Below are positions 112 to 10,948 of a DNA stretch of 10,948 nt, in pieces. The stretch is from a virus (taxonomy: Duplodnaviria; Heunggongvirae; Uroviricota; Caudoviricetes). The position numbers and the translations under genes were made by a program. Numbering within the stretch: position 1 is the stretch's first letter; each line of letters begins with the position of its first letter. The notes beneath the pieces are model-generated. The model had not been told where the DNA came from and made no database searches. It saw only the letters and a program-made list of their open reading frames with translations. The stretch lies in IMG/VR virus record IMGVR_UViG_3300039313_000009; one strand, 5' to 3'.

Positions 112-1848
112 GTGGCAGAAGCTGTCGTTAAAGCTTTCAGCAGTGCGATCAAAGAAGGTTTTATCGAATATGAAAAACCATTCCTGATTGAGAGTGTTAC
201 GGATATCATAGGATCTGAGAGTGTTCAGGAATGTTTAAAATACCTTTCCGAACATGATAAGGTATTGACTATTTTCTTTGATCAGTTCGAAGAAGTCTTT
301 ATGAAAGAGGAACTATTCGGGCTATTTAAAGAATTTGAACGATTCGCACTCGATGTCTCGGCACTACAAAGCAATTTAGTTGTAGGGTTCTCATGGAGAA
401 CTGGTATTACTTTAGGGGATGAAAATCCAGCGTACTCAATGTGGAATCGGCTAAAAGATTATAGGGTTGAAAAGAAACTTGAGCCTTTTGATCTAAAAGA
501 TTCATCTAAATTAATTAATAGTTTCGAGCTAAATACAGGGTTTAAATTAAATAAACCTTTACGCACGCGTCTTATTCAGCAAGCTCAAGGTTATCCATGG
601 TTATTGAAAAAGCTTTGTATTCATGTATTCAAAAAACTAAAAGGAGGTATCTCACAGGATCAAATGTTGGTTAGTCAACTACAGATCTCAAATTTATTTC
701 ATGAGGATTTAGATAGGCCTGAAAAACAAAATTCATGTTTAAAATTTGTGGCAAAGAACTCTCCGATTAGTCAATATGAAGTTACTAAAGAGTTTGGGAG
801 TGATACTGTTTTAGAGCTAATTTCAGATAGGATGGTAATTAAAACAGGTGAAAAATTATCAGTGTATTGGGACGTTTTTCGAGATTACTTGAAAGGAAAT
901 GACCTTCCAGTTATACCATGGTCATATATGCCATCAACATCTCCGAAAATGGTTTTGTTAATTCTTGATGTTGTAAACTCGTTCAAAACCATTAGCTTGG
1001 ATGAACTGCAAACTAAACTAAAATATAGTCGGGGAACATTAATAAATGTTTTAATGGATTTGCAGTATTTTGTTCTCATAGACAGAGATTTAAATGGGAA
1101 TATAGTTTGTAAACAGACTATCACAAATGTCCCTGAGTTTCTTCGTGAGCATTTTAAGAGTCATAGTGTTTTGTTAGAATTGGCAGAGAATATTGTTGAT
1201 GCCGATTTAAGAAGAGTTCCTATCGATAAGTATGAATCTATAATAGCCCATACTTATAAGAATAAAGACGGTGGTTATCCTAAGTCTTATAGTTCAAAAT
1301 TATTGGCTTGGTTACAATTTACGGGGCTGATAGCGGTTATCGGGAAATCTGTGGTTATATATGATGGCGAGTTGTTTTCCCCAGCATTTGGGGCGATTGA
1401 TCTAGATAAAAGAGGGGCACGCAATAGAAGAGGATCACTTTTCTTAGCTGCTACTTCGCCAGAAAAAACACTCGAAGTTGCCGAGTATCTGTGCGCCAAT
1501 AAAAAAATGAGCCATTCATTCATTCAGGCGAATAAACATAGGAATGCAGTGCAGGATTTAATTTCTTTAGGTTTTTGTTCTCGACAAGATGATGGTGTGG
1601 TGATAAATAATAAAATAGAAGTTATATTAGAAAGCATCAGCCTTGAAAGGGCTTTAGCTAGGTTAGTCACTGAATCTCCAGCTATCAAAATATTAAATGC
1701 TTATGTAAATAAATTTGGCGATGATGATAAGAAAATGATGGGGGCAGCACTAGCAAAAGAACTTGAGAGAACATGGACACCTGCATCTACTACTAGATAT
1801 ATTTATGCACTAATGAGATATCGAAATTTCGCATTGGAAACTTTATAA
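112..1848 (+). CDS. STAND/AAA+-like NTPase, 5'-truncated fragment (IS5-disrupted; probably a pseudogene); winged-helix-like C-terminal region
   Basis: 578-aa ORF with Walker-B-like VLTIFFDQFEE near its start and a GxP-like QGYPWLL motif further on, but no P-loop anywhere. The reading frame stays open upstream of the GTG at 112 right through the IS5 junction (first in-frame stop at 49..51), so the P-loop region is expected to have been removed by the insertion. Stop TAA at 1846..1848. Confidence 0.5.
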   Translation: MAEAVVKAFSSAIKEGFIEYEKPFLIESVTDIIGSESVQECLKYLSEHDKVLTIFFDQFEEVFMKEELFGLFKEFERFALDVSALQSNLVVGFSWRTGITLGDENPAYSMWNRLKDYRVEKKLEPFDLKDSSKLINSFELNTGFKLNKPLRTRLIQQAQGYPWLLKKLCIHVFKKLKGGISQDQMLVSQLQISNLFHEDLDRPEKQNSCLKFVAKNSPISQYEVTKEFGSDTVLELISDRMVIKTGEKLSVYWDVFRDYLKGNDLPVIPWSYMPSTSPKMVLLILDVVNSFKTISLDELQTKLKYSRGTLINVLMDLQYFVLIDRDLNGNIVCKQTITNVPEFLREHFKSHSVLLELAENIVDADLRRVPIDKYESIIAHTYKNKDGGYPKSYSSKLLAWLQFTGLIAVIGKSVVIYDGELFSPAFGAIDLDKRGARNRRGSLFLAATSPEKTLEVAEYLCANKKMSHSFIQANKHRNAVQDLISLGFCSRQDDGVVINNKIEVILESISLERALARLVTESPAIKILNAYVNKFGDDDKKMMGAALAKELERTWTPASTTRYIYALMRYRNFALETL

Positions 1849-1857
1849 TTATTAAAT

Positions 1858-1877
1858 CATAGGGCGAAAGCCCTATG
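1858..1877. terminator. Bidirectional hairpin between convergent genes (NTPase fragment and integrase)
   Basis: Perfect 8-bp stem catagggc / gccctatg with gaaa loop, followed by a T-rich tract on the plus strand; it overlaps the integrase stop codon. Confidence 0.55.
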
Positions 1878-3060
1878 ATTTTACTTTTATACCCCACCAT
1901 GACATCAATTCTCTGCGTTGTTCTAAATAAATAGAACGATTATACGCCCGCCGTACTTCATTTTTATCTATATGCGCTAAAGCTGATTCTATAATATCGG
2001 AATTAAAACCAGACTCGTTCAACGCTGTGCTAGCTATAGAACGAAGCCCATGAGCAACGAGTTTACCGCCATAACCAATCCTTTTAAGAGCAGCATTAGC
2101 AGTTTGGCTATTCATAGGTTGTTTAGGATCATTCCTGCTGGGAAAAACATGTTCTCGGTGAGCGCTAATTGGCTTCATTACATCCAGAATCTCTAATGCC
2201 TGTGGTGATAAAGGAACAATGTGTTCCCGCTTAGCTTTCATCCGTTCGGCTGGAATAGTCCAGAGCTTCGTATCGAGATCGATCTCTGCCCAACGGGCAC
2301 CAGAGGCCTCAGAAGGGCGCACGAGCGTCAGGAGTTGCCATTCAATGAGACAGCGAGTCGGAACAGACAGATTTGACATGACTAAAGAACGCATCAGCTT
2401 CGGCAATTCTTCTGGCCGCAGCGTCGGCATGTTTTGTTTTTTGGGCTTCTCAAAGGCCATTCCAATACCTGATGCTGGATTGGCATCAATCAGACCAGTG
2501 TTTACGGCATAAATCATTATCTCGTTAATACGCTGCACTAGTCGACGTACAGTCTCAAGCGCTCCACGAGCTTTGATTGGTTCCAATGCTTCAACTAATA
2601 TTCGGGCTTTAATTTGCTGAACGGGGATCTCACCGATGGCAGGGAATACATCTTTCTCCAATGAGCGCCAAATGTCTTTTGCGTAATCAGGGGTAACGCT
2701 TTTACTTTTGAGCTGGAACCAGTTAGCGGCGACCATTGAGAAAATACTGTCCAGAGCGATTTGCTGCTGTTCCTCTGCAACTTCGGCCTGAATTTGTGGG
2801 TCAATTCCGTTGGCTAACAAGGCAAGGTAATCCGCTCTTAACCCTCGGGCGTCAGCAAGTGAAAGGGCGGGGAAAGCACCAAGCCCCATCATTGTCCGCT
2901 GTTTTGTCGCTGGACGTTGATAACGGAAACGCCAGAGCTTTTTCCCGCTGGTTTTCACTATCAGGAAAAGGCCATCGCCATCATGCAGAGTTAGATCCTT
3001 CTCTAACGCTTTAGCGCGAAGAACTTCGGTGTTGGTAAGGGGGCGTGTTGTCCGTGCCAC
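1873..3060 (-). CDS. int: P4-type tyrosine integrase (IntA/CP4-57-like family)
   Basis: 395-aa ORF. N-terminus MARTTRPLT..DGDGLFL..SGKKLWRFRY is typical of P4-like integrases; C-terminus has HGLRS and ALAH..VRRAYNRS motifs consistent with the tyrosine-recombinase active site. It lies about 185 bp downstream of an ssrA 3'-end repeat in the same orientation, as for ssrA/tRNA-associated islands. Confidence 0.9.
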   Translation of the reverse strand: MARTTRPLTNTEVLRAKALEKDLTLHDGDGLFLIVKTSGKKLWRFRYQRPATKQRTMMGLGAFPALSLADARGLRADYLALLANGIDPQIQAEVAEEQQQIALDSIFSMVAANWFQLKSKSVTPDYAKDIWRSLEKDVFPAIGEIPVQQIKARILVEALEPIKARGALETVRRLVQRINEIMIYAVNTGLIDANPASGIGMAFEKPKKQNMPTLRPEELPKLMRSLVMSNLSVPTRCLIEWQLLTLVRPSEASGARWAEIDLDTKLWTIPAERMKAKREHIVPLSPQALEILDVMKPISAHREHVFPSRNDPKQPMNSQTANAALKRIGYGGKLVAHGLRSIASTALNESGFNSDIIESALAHIDKNEVRRAYNRSIYLEQRRELMSWWGIKVKS

Positions 3061-3402: not shown

Positions 3403-4026
3403 ATGACAATACAGGAAATAATTCAGCAACGTAATATTCGTAGCTTGTTTCATTTTACACATAGCGATAATCTAACTTCCATTTTAGATAATGGCCTTAT
3501 GTCTCGTTCAGAACTTGATAATGAAAATAATGAATATAATTATAATGATGAAGAAAGGATTGATGGTCATCCAGATGCGATTTGTTTGTCCGTAAGTTAC
3601 CCTAATGCAAAAATGTTTTATAAATATAGATGTTTAAAGCCTGGGGGCTGGGTTATATTAGAAATCAATCCATCTGTTCTTTGGGCTAAGGATTGCGCTT
3701 TTTATCCTACCAACGCAGCTTCGAATAACGTTCGTTTTATAAATATTGATTTGATGAAAGGAGCTGAGGCATTTAGTGCTTTGTTTTCAGAGAATGTTTT
3801 TGGGATTCAGAGAGATGTAAACCTTCCAAGTGAGTATACGACGGATGTTCAAGCTGAAATACTGGTATTTGAAAAAATTCCTCCCTCATATATTATAAGC
3901 ACTTTTCACCCTAACAAAGAATCTGCTGAACATTTCAAGAGATTATATCCACAGACAATACAGAGATCTTATGATAATCTTAATGCTAGAACATTTTATT
4001 CTCAGAGGCATTATTATTTAGGATAA
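3403..4026 (+). CDS. darT: DarT-like DNA ADP-ribosyltransferase toxin (DUF4433-type)
   Basis: 207 aa. LFHFTHSDNLTSILDNGL (residues 15-32) parallels the recalled DarT N-terminal motif (for example LFHITHMDNLPSILTSGL); QAEILVF (150-156) parallels the catalytic-glutamate motif; central CAFYPTNAASNNVRF resembles the conserved mid-region. AT-rich codon usage unlike the flanking prophage genes. Confidence 0.7.
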   Translation: MTIQEIIQQRNIRSLFHFTHSDNLTSILDNGLMSRSELDNENNEYNYNDEERIDGHPDAICLSVSYPNAKMFYKYRCLKPGGWVILEINPSVLWAKDCAFYPTNAASNNVRFINIDLMKGAEAFSALFSENVFGIQRDVNLPSEYTTDVQAEILVFEKIPPSYIISTFHPNKESAEHFKRLYPQTIQRSYDNLNARTFYSQRHYYLG

Positions 4027-4029
4027 GTT

Positions 4030-4719
4030 ATGGCCGTTAGACCTGTTTTCGTCCCTACAAACGCAGGGAACTTACTATCGATCACGAAGGATGTGGATTT
4101 TCCTTGGGCTCCTGGTATGTCTAAAACGCAAAAGCAAAAATCGATCAGGGCGTTACATACAGCAGCGAATGAGCAGGGATTGAACTCTTTGTTGGAAATT
4201 TCTAGTAAATCCGAAGATGCGCTGGGGGTAGCACTTAGTGCATTTAATCTAAGAATAAAGACGAAAAGACTTGGGAAAGAGTTTACAGTTGAATCTGCAT
4301 TTCAAGCAAGTAAAGTATTTGAAATGGGAGGACCATATGTCGATATCTTAGATAAAAGCTCGATAGAAGCAAAAAAAGATATGAGATTAAAGGAATCTGG
4401 GGGATTAGTTAACTTCAAATTTTATAATACAATATGGCCCATTGTCCCCAGGACTGCTTTTTATGATTGGTTATATTTGAGTGCGCTCAATCAAAACAAA
4501 AATCTAGCACTCCATCTATTAAATTTTGATGGATTTACTGATATTGAATTTAATCCAGCGAAATCTATTAATTGCCAAGCCAGAGCAGCTGCACTTTTTG
4601 TCTCTTTAGTAAGACGAAATATGTTAGATGATGTTTTATCTTCAAAGGATGGTTTTTTATCAAAATTAGCATCTCATTATGGTGTTGAAAATTATTCTAT
4701 TCAACATACATTGATATGA
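4030..4719 (+). CDS. Operon partner of the DarT-like gene: NADAR-like (YbiA/DUF1768-type) candidate ADP-ribosyl hydrolase antitoxin; no macrodomain signature
   Basis: 229 aa. Translationally coupled (3-nt gap, AGGA Shine-Dalgarno overlapping the upstream stop). LSAF..KEFTVESAFQASKVF aligns by eye with the YbiA motif FSNF..WPTSEHYFQAQKF, followed by SSIEAKKDM versus SSPMVAARM and a W...L..LL region. No DarG-like glycine-rich macrodomain motifs are visible. Confidence 0.5.
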   Translation: MAVRPVFVPTNAGNLLSITKDVDFPWAPGMSKTQKQKSIRALHTAANEQGLNSLLEISSKSEDALGVALSAFNLRIKTKRLGKEFTVESAFQASKVFEMGGPYVDILDKSSIEAKKDMRLKESGGLVNFKFYNTIWPIVPRTAFYDWLYLSALNQNKNLALHLLNFDGFTDIEFNPAKSINCQARAAALFVSLVRRNMLDDVLSSKDGFLSKLASHYGVENYSIQHTLI

Positions 4720-4751: not shown

Positions 4752-5921
4752 TTAATATCTATTTTTTCTATTTAAAGATGTATTTCCATCATATTCTTTG
4801 AGGTATGAGCCATAATGTCTAAATAACATCTCTGGTCCTTTATGACCCATTTGAACCGCAAGCCAAAACAGGTTTGCTCCCCGGCTGATATGGCTGGTGG
4901 CGAATGTATGTCTGGTTTGATATGGGTTTCTGTAACGAATACCTGCTTTCCGCAATGTTGGCACCCATGCTTTTTTTCTAATTGCATCAGCACTTGCCCA
5001 AGGCTTATTGGTCTTTGGATCTTCAAAGACTGTAGCATCCTTCATGAATGTAAATGGCTTCTGATTTATCAGCGCCAACATTGCATCTTCTGTCAGTTCA
5101 ACTTTACGAGTACCGGCTTTTGTCTTTGTTCCTTTGATAACACCGACAACACTTGCGCTCTGGACATGGGCAGTTTTTCCAACAAAGTCGATATCACGCC
5201 ATCGAAGGGCACATAATTCAGAACTACGCAGGCCTGTATGTATAGCGAACCGGAACAGATTCTCCCATTGTTTGTTTCCGGCTGCTGCTAGTAATGCATC
5301 AACTTCTGCTGGTGATAGCGGATCAACCACGTAGCTGCTTTCTGCTTCTGACTTATCACTTTGGTAGCGCGAAGCAGTTACCAACGATACGGGGTTAATT
5401 TGAAGTACCCCATCGGTTACGGCTTCATCAAGTGCTGACCGCAGGAAAGATAACTGGTTGCGAATTGTTTTTAAGGTCGTTTTCTGGCTTTGAATCCACG
5501 CTTTCAGGATTGCTGGTGTTAATTCACTTGCAGGGCAAATGTGGAGTGAGGCTAACGCACTACGGCATTTTTTATAACCACCAATCGTAGATGGTGAAAG
5601 TTTTCTCGTTTCGCAGATTTCAAGGTATTCGTCCAGGTACATTTTTACCGTTTTGCCTGCAGCAGCATTACCAAAAATTTTCAAACGAGCAGAACGGGGA
5701 AAATATTCCGCATAAATGAATGTTCCCCTTTCGATCTTATTATGAATTTCGCCGAGTGTGCGCTCGGCGTATTTAATGTTCTTTGGTGTTACTTCCAGAT
5801 TGGAAAGAGGCTCACGACATCTAACTCCTTTGTAGGTGAAAGTTATATTGATCGTTTCGCCCTGGCGGTGTTTCCTGATTGTTACGCCGCGCGGTAGTTT
5901 GAGCAGTTTTGTCTGGCCCAT
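4752..5921 (-). CDS. int: Lambdoid-type tyrosine integrase with an N-terminal arm-binding domain
   Basis: 389 aa. C-terminal motifs TRHTFAT, MGH and FRHYGSYL fit the R-H-R-Y tyrosine-recombinase active site. The N-terminus (KLPRGVTIRKH..ITFTYKGVRCRE) is arm-binding-like. GAGG Shine-Dalgarno 8 nt upstream; its 5' end overlaps the xis-like gene. Confidence 0.9.
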   Translation of the reverse strand: MGQTKLLKLPRGVTIRKHRQGETINITFTYKGVRCREPLSNLEVTPKNIKYAERTLGEIHNKIERGTFIYAEYFPRSARLKIFGNAAAGKTVKMYLDEYLEICETRKLSPSTIGGYKKCRSALASLHICPASELTPAILKAWIQSQKTTLKTIRNQLSFLRSALDEAVTDGVLQINPVSLVTASRYQSDKSEAESSYVVDPLSPAEVDALLAAAGNKQWENLFRFAIHTGLRSSELCALRWRDIDFVGKTAHVQSASVVGVIKGTKTKAGTRKVELTEDAMLALINQKPFTFMKDATVFEDPKTNKPWASADAIRKKAWVPTLRKAGIRYRNPYQTRHTFATSHISRGANLFWLAVQMGHKGPEMLFRHYGSYLKEYDGNTSLNRKNRY

Positions 5922-8650: not shown

Positions 8651-8900
8651 CGACCCTGCAAGGTCGGTTGGTTTCTCCACAAAACAGAGAAGAACACCTG
8701 CGGTGGCAGCCGCCCGGATGGATTGGGTTATGAGCCCGTCGTCCGGTGATGCTCTTCTCTGTTTTGCAAAAAAGGACGGTACCAGCCGGAAGCAAGGGTA
8801 CAAACTGGTACCGCCAGGACTACACACAGCATAAAGTTGTGGTGCCGGGTGCCTCCCGGTGCCTGGCGAAGGTTGCACACCAGGCGGGTGGGTATCCACA
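8651..8900. other. GC-rich, hairpin-dense non-coding block (candidate structured RNA, recombination site or gene remnant) in the divergent intergenic region
   Basis: 14-bp long-range inverted repeat caaaacagagaaga (8680..8693) / tcttctctgttttg (8754..8767) enclosing about 60 nt; hairpins cgacc..ggtcg (8651..8666), ccggg-tgcct-cccgg (8845..8859) and gcctgg-N13-ccaggc (8861..8885); GGTACC repeated at 8779 and 8807. Overlapping ORFs here are Pro/Gly/Arg-rich and look spurious. Confidence 0.35.
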
Positions 8901-9040
8901 GAAGGTCGACTGTCAGCCTCAACCTTAACCCGCGTGCGCTGAGCCGCATTCACCACAACGCTAAGGATTCTCTCTGGTTGAAAATACTTAGCTGTTATGT
9001 GCCTGCTTTTAGCCACATCAGGCGAGGTGGACCTGGTTAT

Positions 9041-9086
9041 TCCCCAACAACAAGGATTCGGTTAATCTGGATATCCCCAACAACAA
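9041..9086 (+). promoter_or_regulatory. Two perfect 13-bp direct repeats tccccaacaacaa upstream of the zinc-ribbon gene; candidate operator or iteron sites
   Basis: Copies at 9041..9053 and 9074..9086, ending 15 bp before the GTG at 9101. Confidence 0.4.
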
Positions 9087-9100
9087 TAAGAGTATTCAAT

Positions 9101-9616
9101 GTGATCGCTGAATTAACGGCAGCAATGACGGCTATTCGTGAAACAGCCCAGATTGCAAAACTAATGAACGAGGCAAAAACTCAAGCTGAAGTAAATGCGG
9201 CTATTGGTGAGCTGAACTCAAAGCTTGCGTCTATTCAGCGCGAATGCGTGTCTCTCGTTGAACTGGTGGGCTCTTATCAAGAAATAAATGCTTCTCTCAA
9301 AGCTAAAATTGCAGAATTCGAAAACTTTGAGGCTCAGACGGAAGGCTATATCCTTAACCAACTTGAGTCGGGTACTTTTGTATACTCGAAGGAGGTAATC
9401 GTGAACGGTGGCAGCATAACCATGCATCTTTGCCCAAAATGTTTTGGACAAAAGATAGTATCGATACTTCAACCATTCCCGGTTAGCGAAGATGAGCTTT
9501 TTCATAAAAGCAGGTGCCTCCACTGTGAAAATAAGTTTCTGATGAATAAAAATCCGGATTACGTATCGCCTCCATCCATTGAGGAGTTGTCCAGAAAACT
9601 TAACGGCAATCTGTAG
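9101..9616 (+). CDS. Hypothetical coiled-coil protein with a C-terminal CxxC..CxxC zinc-ribbon (about 164-171 aa); the start may instead be ATG 9125
   Basis: Open frame with GTG 9101 (AAGAG 8 nt upstream) and ATG 9125. N-terminal heptad-like, Ala/Glu/Lys-rich segment; C-terminal HLCPKCFGQ..SRCLHCENKF. Followed by a terminator. The 5' part of the track ORF (8837..9100) lies in the GC-rich block and is rejected. Confidence 0.45.
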   Translation: MIAELTAAMTAIRETAQIAKLMNEAKTQAEVNAAIGELNSKLASIQRECVSLVELVGSYQEINASLKAKIAEFENFEAQTEGYILNQLESGTFVYSKEVIVNGGSITMHLCPKCFGQKIVSILQPFPVSEDELFHKSRCLHCENKFLMNKNPDYVSPPSIEELSRKLNGNL

Positions 9617-9656
9617 ATTACTACTGTTGTGGATATCCAGATTGTTAAAGAGCTAA

Positions 9657-9678
9657 GCGTCCTGTAGGGCGCTTTTTT
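9657..9678 (+). terminator. Rho-independent terminator for the zinc-ribbon gene
   Basis: gcgtcc-tgta-gggcgc stem-loop (one G-U pair) followed by TTTTTT. Confidence 0.6.
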
Positions 9679-9763
9679 GTTGCTAACGAATCATCCGGTC
9701 ATTCATACGCCACCGGCGGCTACTTCGTGGGCGTCCTGCCTGTCCGTGATAGCTTACATTATG

Positions 9764-9815
9764 TTGCTACTTAAAGTAGCAAAAATCAACAACAAAAAGT
9801 AGATATTTGTTGTTG
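9764..9815. promoter_or_regulatory. Pair of palindromes in an AT-rich non-coding region; candidate protein-binding, centromere-like or origin-like sites
   Basis: 19-bp perfect palindrome ttgctactt-a-aagtagcaa (9764..9782) and caacaacaaa-N9-tttgttgttg (9787..9815); the CAACAACAA motif is shared with the repeats at 9041..9086. Confidence 0.35.
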
Positions 9816-9960
9816 TCTATGATTTTTCTATAATTAATTGAAAGTTAAATGTTTTTGCTGATTTACTATGCTGTAAACTGAAAATATCGCACGAAGTTGG
9901 AGTAGGTATTGAGCATAGTGAATTATGAGGAGGGAGTTTTTTATGAGATTAATCAGGGAG

Positions 9961-9993
9961 AAAGAAGAGTAAAGCCCGGTTATGCGGCCGGGC
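9961..9993 (-). terminator. Rho-independent terminator for the ParA-like gene
   Basis: gcccgg-N8-ccgggc hairpin (9974..9993) followed on the minus strand by a U-rich tract (complement of 9961..9973), 8 nt downstream of the stop at 10001..10003. Confidence 0.55.
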
Positions 9994-10000
9994 ACATGCA

Positions 10001-10846
10001 TTACTTTGTAAGTTCTAGAACTCGTTGAGCCAGCCCTTTAAATTGTTCGTTAAAGGCGTCTCTGCTTGATTTCATTGTATTTAAGGCATGCCCAAATTGC
10101 CCTGAATCGCGAATTTGCTGATCACTGATGGAGAAAACAGGTGTCGCTAGTTGTTGGCTTATTGCGATTAATGAGTTGAAATCGGAAATATGCGCAAGAT
10201 CATAGGCTGATAAATCTCCACTGACTGTTGTTTTGTTAATTGCATGTTGCACTTTATCTCGTGGAATTATGCAGGTAATTTTTTCTAGATTTGGCACTAA
10301 GATCGAATCAACAGCATCACGGATAGCTGCCATCCATTTTTCGAAAGATTTTACAGGTGCTCCTTTACGCGGCCTGTATCTCTGCTGAATCATACCTAGA
10401 AACTGCGGTGCATTTTTAATTGATTGTGAAGAGTTACCATCATTATTTTCTTTAAATAATGCTAATTCTTTGTGCCAGCGAGGTATATTTTTTGAGAGAG
10501 AGCGAATTGCTTGCCAGCAAAAAAAGTCTGGAGCTACAGGTACGATAAAATAGTCACTTGACATGAGAACTACTTCATTTAAACCTCCAACATTAGGGCT
10601 GAGATCATAAAGAATGTAATCAATATTATTCTTCATGGCGATTAGCTGTAATATTTTTGGCAGGTTCCCTGGTATATTTCTTGTAGCAGGAATACCAGCA
10701 GCAATTTTTAGAGAAACACTTATCTGTGAATCTAAGTCCGAAACATCTAAATGTCCGGGAAGAAGCAGAAGGTTTTCATGCAGTGTAGGGTGTAATTTTC
10801 CCGTTTCTTTTTCAAGGTATGCTTCAGGTTGTCCGCCATTAATCAA
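10001..10846 (-). CDS. ParA/MinD/Soj-superfamily ATPase, 5'-truncated fragment (IS5-disrupted; frame open to 10873; deviant Walker A missing)
   Basis: The segment DYILYDLSPNVGGLNEVVLMSSDYFIVPVAPDFF matches the ParA core (hydrophobic strand, Asp, then ...P...S/T...AL..AD..hhP). The track start is a TTG and the frame continues open into the IS5 junction; no KGGxGKT P-loop is present. Confidence 0.65.
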   Translation of the reverse strand: MINGGQPEAYLEKETGKLHPTLHENLLLLPGHLDVSDLDSQISVSLKIAAGIPATRNIPGNLPKILQLIAMKNNIDYILYDLSPNVGGLNEVVLMSSDYFIVPVAPDFFCWQAIRSLSKNIPRWHKELALFKENNDGNSSQSIKNAPQFLGMIQQRYRPRKGAPVKSFEKWMAAIRDAVDSILVPNLEKITCIIPRDKVQHAINKTTVSGDLSAYDLAHISDFNSLIAISQQLATPVFSISDQQIRDSGQFGHALNTMKSSRDAFNEQFKGLAQRVLELTK

Positions 10847-10873
10847 ATATTCTACAATAGGTCCAAGAGTTAA

Positions 10874-10948
10874 GGAAGGTGCGAATAAGCGGGGAAATTC
10901 TTCTCGGCTGACTCAGTCATTTCATTTCTTCATGTTTGAGCCGATTTT
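10874..10948 (-). mobile_element. IS5-type insertion sequence, terminal 75 bp of the transposase-distal end (terminal repeat at 10874..10889), inverted relative to the left copy; element body lies downstream of the window
   Basis: ggaaggtgcgaataagcgggg... at 10874 onward is the exact reverse complement of 20..94. The flanking tetranucleotide TTAA (10870..10873) fits the YTAR target preference. Confidence 0.8.

What the first reader, a model, noticed from the sequence alone, without database searches (positions are those of the whole stretch)
9041..9616. Coiled-coil zinc-ribbon protein with direct repeats in its promoter
A gene of about 170 aa combines an N-terminal coiled coil with a C-terminal CxxC..CxxC zinc ribbon and is preceded by two perfect 13-bp direct repeats whose CAACAACAA core recurs in the palindromes downstream of its terminator. 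I could not place it in any family; the repeats on both sides suggest it is regulated by, or itself binds, these sites.
Basis: partly seen in the sequence, partly recalled or inferred. Interest (0 to 1): 0.5.

Follow-up and report, generated by a model that had tools for sequence, protein, structure and literature searches.

The report
Rip1-family prophage defence gene cassette
The "coiled-coil zinc-ribbon" gene is a divergent member of the recently characterised Rip1 family of prophage anti-phage pore-forming proteins, and its repeats belong to a conserved cassette slot shared with many unrelated genes, not to a DNA-binding role of the protein.

Summary
ORF 9101-9616 encodes 171 aa with N-terminal long helices and an invariant CxxC...CxxC. 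It is preceded by two perfect 13-bp repeats whose core recurs downstream.

The protein is a homologue of Rip1 ("ring interacting pore 1", PDB 9oox; Patel et al., Nature 2026). A family profile matches it at E=1e-19, and Foldseek on a pLDDT-89.6 model gives probability 1.0. Rip1 is a prophage defence that assembles on the rings formed by an invading phage's small terminase or portal protein and makes a membrane pore. A DNA-binding role is therefore unlikely.

The repeats belong to a prophage cassette slot, not to this gene. The same leader and right flank enclose at least 19 unrelated, uncharacterised cargo types.

- A 26-nt inverted repeat brackets the ORF, and its arms co-vary between cargo types.
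- A consensus rrn-type boxA lies on the opposite strand at 9642-9653.
- An STnc100-like sRNA lies at 8766-8989.

I infer that the repressor-controlled early-left promoter pL reads antisense through the cassette. This would silence Rip1 on induction. The boxA and the long-range stem may insulate that transcript; this part is a hypothesis.

The gene is a new member of a known kind. The slot architecture is the interesting lead.

The parts
9101..9616 (+). Rip1-family gene (171 aa; GTG start). It has N-terminal long helices and a C-terminal beta-rich Cys4 domain.
   Evidence: ORF and translation. phrog_1244 E=9e-60. Profile against PDB 9oox Rip1 E=1e-19. phmmer E=2.7e-7. AF2 pLDDT 89.6. Foldseek on 9oox_M E=9e-7, probability 1.0, TM 0.57/0.74. 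Invariant Cys4.
9041..9053 (+). Direct repeat copy 1 (TCCCCAACAACAA). It lies in the constant left flank of the slot, about where a -35 element would sit.
   Evidence: Conserved in all slot loci and in Klebsiella, Lelliottia and Edwardsiella leaders.
9061..9066 (+). -10-like hexamer GTTAAT. This is the inferred cassette promoter; no transcription start data exist.
   Evidence: The same position reads TATAAT in L007, GATAAT in the Klebsiella phage and TAAAAT in HK620 and the Salmonella phage. The consensus scan found no canonical sigma-70 promoter.
9074..9086 (+). Direct repeat copy 2, directly upstream of the SD (AAGAG, 9088-9092). It is the last constant element before the variable cargo.
   Evidence: Sequences of different cargo types diverge right after CCCCAACAAC.
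9064..9089 (.). Left arm of the 26-nt inverted repeat that brackets the cassette.
   Evidence: Covariation: (7 of 13 pairs changed on both sides, 93.5% of cells paired, 0 of 500 shuffles).
9618..9643 (.). Right arm of the inverted repeat, between the stop codon and the terminator.
9642..9653 (-). rrn-type boxA (GCUCUUUAACAA) in the leftward transcript. In that transcript's direction it follows the hairpin.
   Evidence: single exact match in the window; single match in the 29-kb L001. Consensus UGCUCUUUA + ACAAU from PMC2724277. The EDL933 variant is a perfect UGCUCUUUAACAA.
9655..9680 (+). Intrinsic terminator of the cassette (stem 9655-9674 plus T-run). On the minus strand the same palindrome is a hairpin placed like rrn boxB, just 5' of boxA.
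9001..9023 (.). Conserved stem-loop GCCTG-N13-CAGGC at the start of the conserved leader.
   Evidence: Read from the sequence. Conserved in HK620, Salmonella, Klebsiella, Edwardsiella and Lelliottia leaders. Function unknown.
8766..8989 (-). STnc100/PasD-like prophage sRNA, divergent from the Rip1 gene and downstream of it on the leftward transcript. RefSeq annotates a 'frameshifted hypothetical protein' over the same region in IHE3034.
   Evidence: RF02076 full-length match, 40.3 bits (gathering score 47), E=2.8e-7. Also found left of the slot in L005, L133 and L139. RefSeq annotation.
9758..9781 (-). Inferred early-left promoter pL: -10 CATAAT (9763 to 9758 on the minus strand) with operator TGCTACTTAAAGTAGCA (9765-9781).
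   Evidence: The operator matches the two OR operators between cI and cro of the same immunity type (TGCTATTTTAAGTAGCA). In the ymfK-type prophage L005 the same position carries TTGACA-16-CATAAT on the minus strand. Inference only, no transcription start data.
9787..9815 (.). Palindrome CAACAACAAA-N9-TTTGTTGTTG in the immunity-specific operator region.
   Evidence: It is not part of the constant slot flank: other immunity types carry different sequence here.

Best explanation
The gene is a Rip1-family prophage defence gene. It sits as a self-contained cassette (own leader, own terminator) in a variable slot between the immunity region and the early-left operon of a lambdoid prophage, on the strand opposite to that operon.

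By homology with Rip1 from phage HK446 and from a Pseudomonas aeruginosa prophage, I infer the following mechanism:
- The protein is made in the lysogen and is harmless on its own.
- When another phage reaches late morphogenesis, the C-terminal Cys4 domain binds the ring formed by that phage's small terminase or portal protein.
- About twelve copies assemble around the ring.
- The N-terminal amphipathic helices form a pore in the inner membrane.
- The cell dies before progeny are completed (abortive infection).

The DNA repeats are features of the slot, not targets of the protein. Repeat 1 and repeat 2 flank a -10-like hexamer in a leader shared by many unrelated cargo genes. The inverted copy after the stop codon, together with the left arm, forms a covarying long-range inverted repeat.

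I also infer that the repressor-controlled early-left promoter pL reads antisense through the cassette. On induction this would silence Rip1. The boxA on that transcript would protect the untranslated antisense stretch from Rho.

Shown here: homology, fold, conserved Cys4, slot architecture, covariation, presence of boxA. Inferred: the trigger, pore formation, the direction and role of pL transcription, and the role of the stem.
For: Family membership:
- phrog_1244 at E=9e-60.
- A profile of 30 homologues hits PDB 9oox 'ring interacting pore 1' at E=1e-19 over 147 of 168 profile positions. The single sequence gives E=2.7e-7. BLASTP to the 9oox fragment gives 27% identity, E=6e-11.
- The AF2 model (pLDDT 89.6) matches 9oox chains L and M at Foldseek E=6e-7 and 9e-7, probability 1.0. 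The next hit is at E=0.16.
- The Cys4 motif is invariant in the family and aligned with that of Rip1.
- The family is large: 2,743 50%-identity clusters at E<=1e-3, nearly all of the 150 listed being 105-211 aa.

Link to the characterised proteins:
[quoted passage not shown] That is where the review places Pseudomonas Rip1 (PMC13434031).
- Mechanism of Rip1.

Antisense placement:
- All six contexts examined place the gene on the strand opposite to the surrounding operon.

Slot:
- Identical flanks enclose at least 19 cargo 5' types in 120 IMG/VR loci, and further types in E. coli genomes.
- 702 of 5,426 complete E. coli genomes carry at least 80% of window 9020-9700, the gene with its immediate flanks.

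Inverted-repeat covariation. boxA. pL and operator.
Against: - Identity to the characterised Rip1 is only about 27%, so trigger specificity and even the effector step could differ.
- The original Nature paper could not be read. The mechanism comes from a review, a meeting report and the PDB title.
- The amphipathic character of the N-terminal helices is moderate (muH 0.40-0.44), and no pore or oligomer was modelled.
- The consensus scan finds no canonical sigma-70 promoter for the gene.
- The transcription starts of the gene and of pL are inferred, not observed.
- Counting G.U wobbles does not show which strand's RNA the inverted repeat serves (9 against 7).
Confidence: 0.75

Rival explanations
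1. One reading: the protein is a zinc-ribbon DNA-binding regulator that binds the CAACAACAA repeats on both sides of its own gene (autoregulation or operator looping).
For: - Zinc ribbons can bind nucleic acids.
- The repeats flank the gene and are conserved.
- Both upstream copies change in concert between lineages, as expected for sites of a co-evolving binding factor.
Against: - The protein is homologous, at full length and in fold, to Rip1, whose C-terminal domain contacts the terminase ring.
- The same repeats precede unrelated cargo genes that lack this protein.
- DMS3 gp25 has no such repeats.
- HK620 hkaP keeps the upstream pair but has no downstream inverted copy.
- There are no hits to DNA-binding families.
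Confidence: 0.04
2. The protein is a Rip1-fold relative but works differently. It could be a classical superinfection-exclusion or other lysogenic-conversion factor, as the HK620 hkaP annotation guessed, or it could sense a different phage assembly.
For: - Only 27% identity to the characterised Rip1.
- HK620 hkaP is annotated 'putative superinfection exclusion protein'.
- The family is very diverse.
Against: - Helices, beta domain and Cys4 are conserved along the whole length.
- The antisense prophage placement is the same as for the Pseudomonas Rip1 position.
- Rip1 is already reported to respond to two different ring proteins, portal and small terminase, so divergence in trigger fits within the family.
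Confidence: 0.12
3. The inverted repeats are terminal inverted repeats or recombination sites of small mobile cassettes moved by a trans-acting recombinase, not RNA elements.
For: - The arms sit exactly at the cargo boundaries and co-vary. Symmetric protein-binding ends also co-vary.
- Cargo diversity at one site is very high.
- The G.U count shows no RNA strand signature.
Against: - No recombinase or transposase is linked to the slot.
- No empty site and no inverted orientation were seen in about 130 loci.
- No clear target-site duplication.
- About 100 bp of conserved leader and about 90 bp of conserved right flank are enough for exchange by phage-encoded homologous recombination.
- The inverted repeat occurs together with boxA and is missing where an N gene lies upstream.
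Confidence: 0.12

Closest known systems
Rip1 (ring interacting pore 1) of Escherichia phage HK446 and of a Pseudomonas aeruginosa prophage (PDB 9oox; Patel et al., Nature 2026)
   Same: - Full-length sequence and fold homology.
- Similar size (164 against 171 aa).
- N-terminal long helices, then a beta-rich domain with the aligned CxxC...CxxC.
- Prophage-encoded single gene on the strand opposite to its neighbours.
   Different: - Only about 27% identity.
- Here the gene lies in the early-left/immunity region of a lambdoid prophage that appears to lack an N gene, not between the terminase genes.
- Trigger, oligomer and activity are untested for this subfamily.
HK620 HkaP, DMS3 gp25, D3112 orf25 (phrog_1244, annotated hypothetical)
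   Same: - Same protein family (tblastn 28-29% identity, E=1e-10 to 3e-13).
- Antisense placement inside a phage operon.
- HK620 shares the upstream leader with two direct repeats.
   Different: - No flanking inverted repeat or adjacent boxA.
- The HK620 repeats read CCCCTACAG.
- DMS3 has no recognisable leader.
Tab (JBD26 gp31), tail assembly blocker
   Same: [quoted passage not shown] It is a prophage defence that acts on late morphogenesis (PMC10884400).
   Different: It is an unrelated 83-aa protein. It blocks tail assembly through the tape measure protein and has a partner anti-Tab gene.
rrn leader antitermination and processing module (boxB hairpin, boxA, long-range RNase III stem around 16S rRNA)
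   Same: On the leftward strand the order is hairpin, consensus boxA (GCUCUUUAACAA), then a 13-26 bp long-range stem enclosing 0.5-0.9 kb of untranslated RNA. The boxA consensus is from PMC2724277. The parallel with the 16S processing stem is from my own knowledge.
   Different: - This is a resemblance only. Nus-factor binding, Rho protection and RNase III cleavage are untested.
- The enclosed RNA is the antisense of a protein-coding cassette, not a structural RNA.
Lambda rexAB/sieB-type 'morons' and defence hotspots of prophages and satellites
   Same: Accessory genes with their own expression signals, expressed from the prophage near the immunity region. The cargo at a fixed position is highly variable.
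   Different: The slot here is defined by short conserved non-coding flanks (leader; inverted repeat + boxA + hairpin), not by flanking core genes. Apart from Rip1, none of the seven cargo proteins tested matches PADLOC, and the only Pfam hit is a weak sub-threshold LprI match.

Membership tests
Rip1 (ring interacting pore 1) family | Significant, near full-length sequence similarity to an experimentally characterised Rip1 | tested here: met
   Profile of 30 homologues against 9oox: E=1e-19, profile positions 5-151 against chain residues 15-160. Single sequence: E=2.7e-7. BLASTP: 27% identity, E=6e-11.
Rip1 (ring interacting pore 1) family | Same fold: N-terminal long helices followed by a compact beta-rich C-terminal domain | tested here: met
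   AF2 model pLDDT 89.6. Foldseek against 9oox_L and 9oox_M: E=6e-7 and 9e-7, probability 1.0, TM up to 0.57 (query) and 0.74 (target). The next hit has E=0.16.
Rip1 (ring interacting pore 1) family | Conserved CxxC...CxxC in the C-terminal domain | tested here: met
   C111, C114, C139 and C142 are invariant in 30 homologues. They align with LCAQC and RCHRC of Rip1.
Rip1 (ring interacting pore 1) family | Prophage-encoded stand-alone gene transcribed independently of, and opposite to, the surrounding phage operon | tested here: met
   Window and IHE3034, PhiR49_1, HK620, DMS3, Edwardsiella, Arsenophonus and Lelliottia.
Rip1 (ring interacting pore 1) family | Amphipathic N-terminal helix able to form the membrane pore | tested here: inconclusive
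   The hydrophobic moment is 0.40-0.44 for the 18-residue windows starting at residues 7, 13 and 37. That is moderate. No transmembrane segment is present.
Rip1 (ring interacting pore 1) family | Assembly of about 12 copies around the small-terminase (11-mer) or portal ring, and activation by it | not testable with these tools
   Known for Rip1 from PDB 9oox and PMC13434031 / PMC12908700. It needs co-expression, cryo-EM or multimer modelling.
Rip1 (ring interacting pore 1) family | Anti-phage (abortive infection) activity, with no toxicity when expressed alone | not testable with these tools
   It needs plating and survival assays.
rrn/nut-type boxA antitermination site | boxA consensus UGCUCUUUA (+ACAAU) on the transcribed strand | tested here: met
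   GCTCTTTAACAA at 9642-9653 on the minus strand is the only match in the window and in the 29-kb L001. The EDL933 variant is a perfect TGCTCTTTAACAA. Consensus from PMC2724277.
rrn/nut-type boxA antitermination site | Located downstream of a promoter that transcribes that strand | tested here: inconclusive
   There is a -10 CATAAT with a cI-type operator at 9758-9781. In L005 the same place carries a perfect TTGACA-16-CATAAT. No transcription start or RNA-seq data are available.
rrn/nut-type boxA antitermination site | Binds NusB/NusE and confers resistance to Rho | not testable with these tools
   It needs nusB, nusE and boxA mutants and bicyclomycin experiments.
   The same leader repeats and inverted-repeat flanks enclose at least 19 cargo 5' types; among those I translated are ECs1072-family proteins, an LprI-like secreted protein and membrane proteins.
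   No Pfam or NCBIfam hit passes threshold. The best structural and sequence match is Rip1.

The most novel reading that the evidence does not exclude
The slot may be a purpose-built insulator for antisense genes in lambdoid prophages that appear to lack an N gene.

On the early-left (pL) transcript, a hairpin and an rrn-type boxA would recruit the Nus factors. The covarying inverted repeat would then form a long-range stem that loops out, and possibly lets RNase III excise, the 0.5-0.9 kb untranslated antisense copy of whatever defence cassette sits there. This parallels the way the rrn leader handles 16S rRNA.

Such a device would let the phage swap defence genes freely without polar effects on its early operon. 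It would also switch the defence gene off on induction, and might feed production of the downstream STnc100-like sRNA.

A corollary is that the roughly 15 other uncharacterised cargo families in the slot are new single-gene anti-phage or lysogenic-conversion factors.
Probability: 0.3. Interest if true: 0.65.

Novelty: new member of a known kind. Interest (0 to 1): 0.42.

Why it matters
The finding matters in three ways.
- It gives a mechanistic annotation. A "hypothetical protein" present in about 13% of complete E. coli genomes (702 of 5,426), including ExPEC, APEC and O157 strains, becomes a candidate abortive-infection pore that senses phage packaging rings. This bears on phage-therapy host range.
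- It defines a short, searchable non-coding framework: leader ...CCCCAACAAC | cargo | CCAGATTGTTAAAGAGC + hairpin. This framework marks a hotspot that contains many uncharacterised single-gene cassettes, which are good candidates for new defence genes.
- If the boxA and long-range-stem model holds, it would show how prophages tolerate antisense accessory genes inside essential early operons.

Tried and rejected
- Pfam, NCBIfam and PADLOC gave no significant hit for the protein; Pfam and NCBIfam returned only coiled-coil noise.
- The literature search for 'hkaP' returned only unrelated papers.
- Tab (JBD26 gp31) was considered because DMS3 gp25 occupies the same position. Tab is an unrelated 83-aa protein.
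- The Rip1 primary paper (doi 10.1038/s41586-025-10075-1) is not in the held library, so the mechanism is taken from secondary sources.
- ParA as a functional partner was rejected. The same ParA and cI occur with a different cargo gene (L006), and the Rip1 homologue occurs next to cI without ParA (PhiR49_1).
- An invertible element was rejected. In about 130 loci the cargo start always follows the left arm, and no inverted orientation was seen.
- A target-site duplication of the palindromic GGATATCC was rejected. Other cargo types carry arms such as GGATGACT/AGTCATCC, which are inverted and not direct.
- I counted G.U wobbles to find which strand's RNA forms the stem.
  - The extended arms gave 14 (minus strand) against 3 (plus strand). 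This count is confounded because the C/A-rich left arm is constrained.
  - The outer 13 bp gave 9 against 7, no bias.
- The consensus promoter scan found no sigma-70 promoter between 8600 and 10100.
- The Rfam scan found no known family for the leader or the inverted repeat.
Full report
**1. Observation**

The window carries TCCCCAACAACAA at 9041-9053 and 9074-9086, both perfect and 33 bp apart. A GTG-initiated ORF runs from 9101 to 9616 and encodes 171 aa. RefSeq annotates it identically as the hypothetical protein WP_000559922. An intrinsic terminator lies at 9655-9680. CAACAACAA recurs at 9787-9795 (+) and 9807-9815 (-), giving 5 matches in a 29-kb locus against 0.47 expected. In an alignment of 30 homologues, C111, C114, C139 and C142 are invariant. 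The AlphaFold2 model (mean pLDDT 89.6) has helices 2-23 and 28-79 followed by a beta-rich domain. The description is correct.

- A 26-nt inverted repeat (9064-9089 / 9618-9643, 85% complementary) brackets the ORF.
- A degenerate third repeat copy lies at 8953-8970.
- A boxA lies on the opposite strand.
- An sRNA-like element lies just upstream.

**2. Genomic context**

The stretch is 100% identical to lambdoid prophages of ExPEC and APEC strains such as IHE3034 and APEC O18. In IHE3034 the gene sits on the + strand. On one side is the early-left operon (yfdP, yfdQ, yfdR, yfdT; minus strand). On the other are a ParA-family ATPase and an XRE-type cI repressor (minus strand), with cro beyond. In the inducible phage PhiR49_1 the same gene (99.4% identical) lies directly next to cI, without ParA. 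In strain PK8275 the same ParA and cI occur with a different gene in this position. ParA is therefore not a partner.

The window itself is a mosaic. It also carries a second integrase and a DarT/NADAR pair. At least 80% of window 9020-9700, the gene with its immediate flanks, is found in 702 of 5,426 complete E. coli genomes.

**3. What the protein is**

Pfam, NCBIfam and PADLOC give nothing significant. PHROGs places the protein in phrog_1244, function unknown, at E=9e-60. tblastn against phage genomes finds HK620 and HK630 HkaP (HK620's copy is annotated "putative superinfection exclusion protein"). [quoted passage not shown]

The decisive result is structural and was then confirmed by sequence:
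- Foldseek of the model against the PDB gives only two significant hits. Both are chains of 9oox, [quoted passage not shown] (E=6e-7 and 9e-7, probability 1.0, 28% identity). The next hit has E=0.16.
- A profile of the 30 homologues matches the Rip1 chain at E=1e-19 over nearly its full length, with the two CxxC motifs aligned.
- The single sequence gives E=2.7e-7.
- The Rip1 fragment is 27% identical to the window protein, 27% to HkaP and 31% to DMS3 gp25.

An exhaustive profile search finds 2,743 clusters at 50% identity with E<=1e-3. Nearly all of the 150 listed are 105-211 aa.

**4. How Rip1 works (secondary sources; the Nature paper is not held)**

Rip1 stands for "ring interacting pore 1".
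- It is not toxic alone.
- Escape mutations of Pseudomonas phages map to the portal protein. Those of E. coli phages map to the small terminase.
- Cryo-EM shows an 11-mer small-terminase ring surrounded by 12 Rip1 monomers. The C-terminal half contacts the ring and the N-terminal amphipathic helices form a pore.
- The complexes release dye from liposomes and make holes in cells, causing premature lysis.
- Relatives are widespread in proteobacterial prophages (PMC13434031; PMC12908700; PMC13601566).

I therefore file the gene as a divergent Rip1-family member. The most likely mechanism is a ring-triggered pore that causes abortive infection. Homology, fold and context are shown. Trigger, oligomer and pore are inferred. 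The N-terminal helices are only moderately amphipathic (muH 0.40-0.44).

**5. The repeats belong to a slot, not to the gene**

A more sensitive blastn search of E. coli genomes with 9020-9700 finds many records. Where the gene itself is absent, the two ends still match (90-99% identity), around inserts that give total spans of 661-927 bp.

Reading those loci shows identical flanks around unrelated genes. The left flank reads ...GTTATTCCCCAACAACAAGGATTCGGTTAATCTGGATATCCCCAACAAC. The right flank reads CCAGATTGTTAAAGAGC plus the hairpin AAGCGTCCnnTAGGGCGCTTTTTT. The cargoes are:
- an ECs1072-family protein with a small antisense ORF;
- a 167-aa protein;
- a secreted LprI-like protein;
- membrane proteins with proline-rich mini-ORFs;
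- several diverged Rip1 variants.

They contain at least 19 distinct cargo 5' types. None of the seven non-Rip1 cargo proteins I tested matches PADLOC, and the only Pfam hit is a weak sub-threshold LprI match.

Repeat copy 1 lies in the constant flank. Copy 2 is the last constant element before each cargo's ribosome-binding site. The protein is therefore not the likely ligand of the repeats.

**6. The leader**

The leader travels with Rip1 homologues well beyond E. coli. It consists of a stem-loop (GCCTG-N13-CAGGC, 9001-9023), repeat 1, a -10-like hexamer, repeat 2 and the SD. It is recognisable upstream of homologues in a Klebsiella phage, HK620, a Salmonella phage, Edwardsiella and Lelliottia.

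The hexamer reads GTTAAT here, TATAAT in L007, GATAAT in Klebsiella, and TAAAAT in HK620 and Salmonella. This supports a real promoter with a non-canonical -35 overlapped by repeat 1, although the consensus scan finds none.

Both repeat copies change in concert: CCCCAACAAC in E. coli, CCCCTACAG in HK620 and Salmonella, CCCCAACAGC in Edwardsiella. This points to a shared ligand or pairing partner, which remains unknown. So "direct repeats in its promoter" is right, and regulation through them remains open.

**7. The inverted repeat**

Every cargo type with a recognisable right flank has arms directly inside the constant flanks. The arms differ between cargo types in a compensatory way:
- GGATATCC / GGATATCC in most types;
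- GGATGACT / AGTCATCC in L008 and L033;
- GTAACCCTC / GAGGGTTAC in L011, L013 and L086;
- CTGAAT / ATTCAG in L080;
- AACGAC / GTCGTT in the Klebsiella phage.

On an alignment of 20 junction pairs, 93.5% of cells form standard pairs. Seven of 13 pairs show changes on both sides. No shuffle out of 500 reaches the observed values, and sliding the partner by one to three columns drops pairing to 15-51%. HK620 hkaP and DMS3 gp25 have no such repeat.

**8. boxA and the antisense transcript**

The constant right flank, read on the minus strand, is GCUCUUUAACAA. This is the rrn-type boxA (UGCUCUUUA) with its ACAAU spacer (PMC2724277). It is the only match in the window and in the 29-kb IHE3034 locus. 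The EDL933 variant is a perfect UGCUCUUUAACAA, preceded by a different hairpin.

About 110 bp further right lies a -10 CATAAT on the minus strand (9763 to 9758). It abuts TGCTACTTAAAGTAGCA (9765-9781), which matches the two operators between cI and cro of this immunity type. Prophages of the ymfK immunity type carry a perfect TTGACA-16-CATAAT at the same place.

I infer that this is pL. Its transcript would read, in order: hairpin, boxA, inverted-repeat arm, antisense cargo, inverted-repeat arm, STnc100-like RNA (8766-8989; RF02076, 40.3 bits, E=2.8e-7, below the gathering score), then yfdP and the genes beyond.

boxA and the inverted repeat are present in prophages where I saw no N gene (E. 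coli, Klebsiella, Lelliottia). They are absent where an N gene lies upstream (HK620, Edwardsiella) and in late-operon copies (DMS3, Arsenophonus).

Ensemble folding predicts the long-range stem in the minus-strand RNA for all 16 cargo types tested, with 5.2-13.8 expected arm pairs and more than 9 in 13 of them. In the plus-strand RNA it forms well in only about 9 of 16. G.U counting does not discriminate the strands.

The order hairpin, boxA, long-range stem around about 0.6 kb of untranslated RNA resembles the rrn leader and the 16S processing stem (my own knowledge). I give the insulator idea a probability of about 0.3. A recombination-site reading of the arms remains a rival.

**9. Consequence for Rip1**

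All six contexts examined place the gene antisense to a phage operon, either early-left or late. A plausible reason is that the prophage's own lytic transcription silences a protein that could otherwise be triggered by the phage's own terminase or portal rings. This is an inference.

**10. Verdict**

The DNA-binding interpretation is not supported. The promoter-repeat idea is partly supported.

The gene is a new, divergent member of a family characterised in 2026, so by itself it is ordinary. The leads worth following are the cassette slot with its covarying inverted repeat, the boxA, the neighbouring sRNA, and the many unknown cargo genes.

Noticed in passing
window 9642-9653 (minus strand): A consensus rrn-type boxA (GCUCUUUAACAA) lies directly after a hairpin on the leftward strand. 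It is the only match in the window and in the 29-kb IHE3034 locus. It is conserved in all slot loci I read, with single-base variants in a few (for example GCTCTTTAAAAA in L011 and L139), and is a perfect UGCUCUUUAACAA in EDL933.
   Followed up: partly
window 9064-9089 / 9618-9643; loci L005-L012, L013-L132, L133, L139: This is a prophage cassette hotspot. Constant non-coding flanks enclose at least 19 unrelated cargo types, each bracketed by inverted-repeat arms that co-vary between cargo types (7 of 13 pairs changed on both sides).
   Followed up: yes
window 8766-8989 (minus strand): A full-length match to the prophage sRNA family STnc100/PasD (RF02076, 40.3 bits, below the gathering score of 47, E=2.8e-7) ends in a terminator hairpin and U-run. 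RefSeq calls the region a 'frameshifted hypothetical protein'. Similar hits lie left of the slot in L005, L133 and L139.
   Followed up: partly
L139 (Lelliottia) 1883-2245: Sub-threshold DicF-like (33.8 bits) and STnc100-like (36.1 bits) matches and a tRNA match (38.2 bits, above its gathering score of 29) lie in a row downstream of the slot on the leftward strand. This suggests that early-left leaders of these prophages are processed into small RNAs.
   Followed up: no
window 3403-4026 and 4030-4719 (+), between integrases 1873-3060 (-) and 4752-5921 (-): A DarT ssDNA ADP-ribosyltransferase (PF14487, E=4e-23) and its NADAR-DarT1 antitoxin (PF22397, E=1e-89) sit between two tyrosine integrase genes. 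This is a second defence or toxin-antitoxin module at the prophage end, and suggests tandem integrated elements.
   Followed up: partly
window 10001-10948 (minus strand; continues beyond the window): A ParA-family ATPase (358 aa in IHE3034) lies downstream of cI, in the position where lambda carries rexAB. Only the N-terminal P-loop matches ParA/MinD models, and there is a weak PADLOC PDC-M28B hit (E=6e-9). It is independent of the Rip1 cassette.
   Followed up: partly
window 9807-9834 and 9943-9972 (+): A promoter-like TTGTTG-16-TATAAT faces rightwards out of the operator palindrome. Downstream, a 9-codon mini-ORF (MRLIREKEE) with a strong SD (GAGGAGGGAG) ends just before the ParA terminator hairpin (9974-9993).
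   Followed up: no
window 112-1848 (+): A 578-aa ORF at the left end of the window has no Pfam or PADLOC hit.
   Followed up: no
L007 2581-2665 and 3300-3354; L011 2581-2670: Membrane-protein cargoes in the slot are flanked by tiny ORFs with proline-rich tails (for example ...PAPIPEPKPEM and ...PRPSPPEPKPKSR). Their meaning is unknown.
   Followed up: no
window 9001-9092; L003 2880-2995; L134; L135: The two direct repeats of the leader change in concert between lineages (CCCCAACAAC, CCCCTACAG, CCCCAACAGC), while their spacing of about 33-34 bp and the -10-like hexamer between them are kept.
   Followed up: partly
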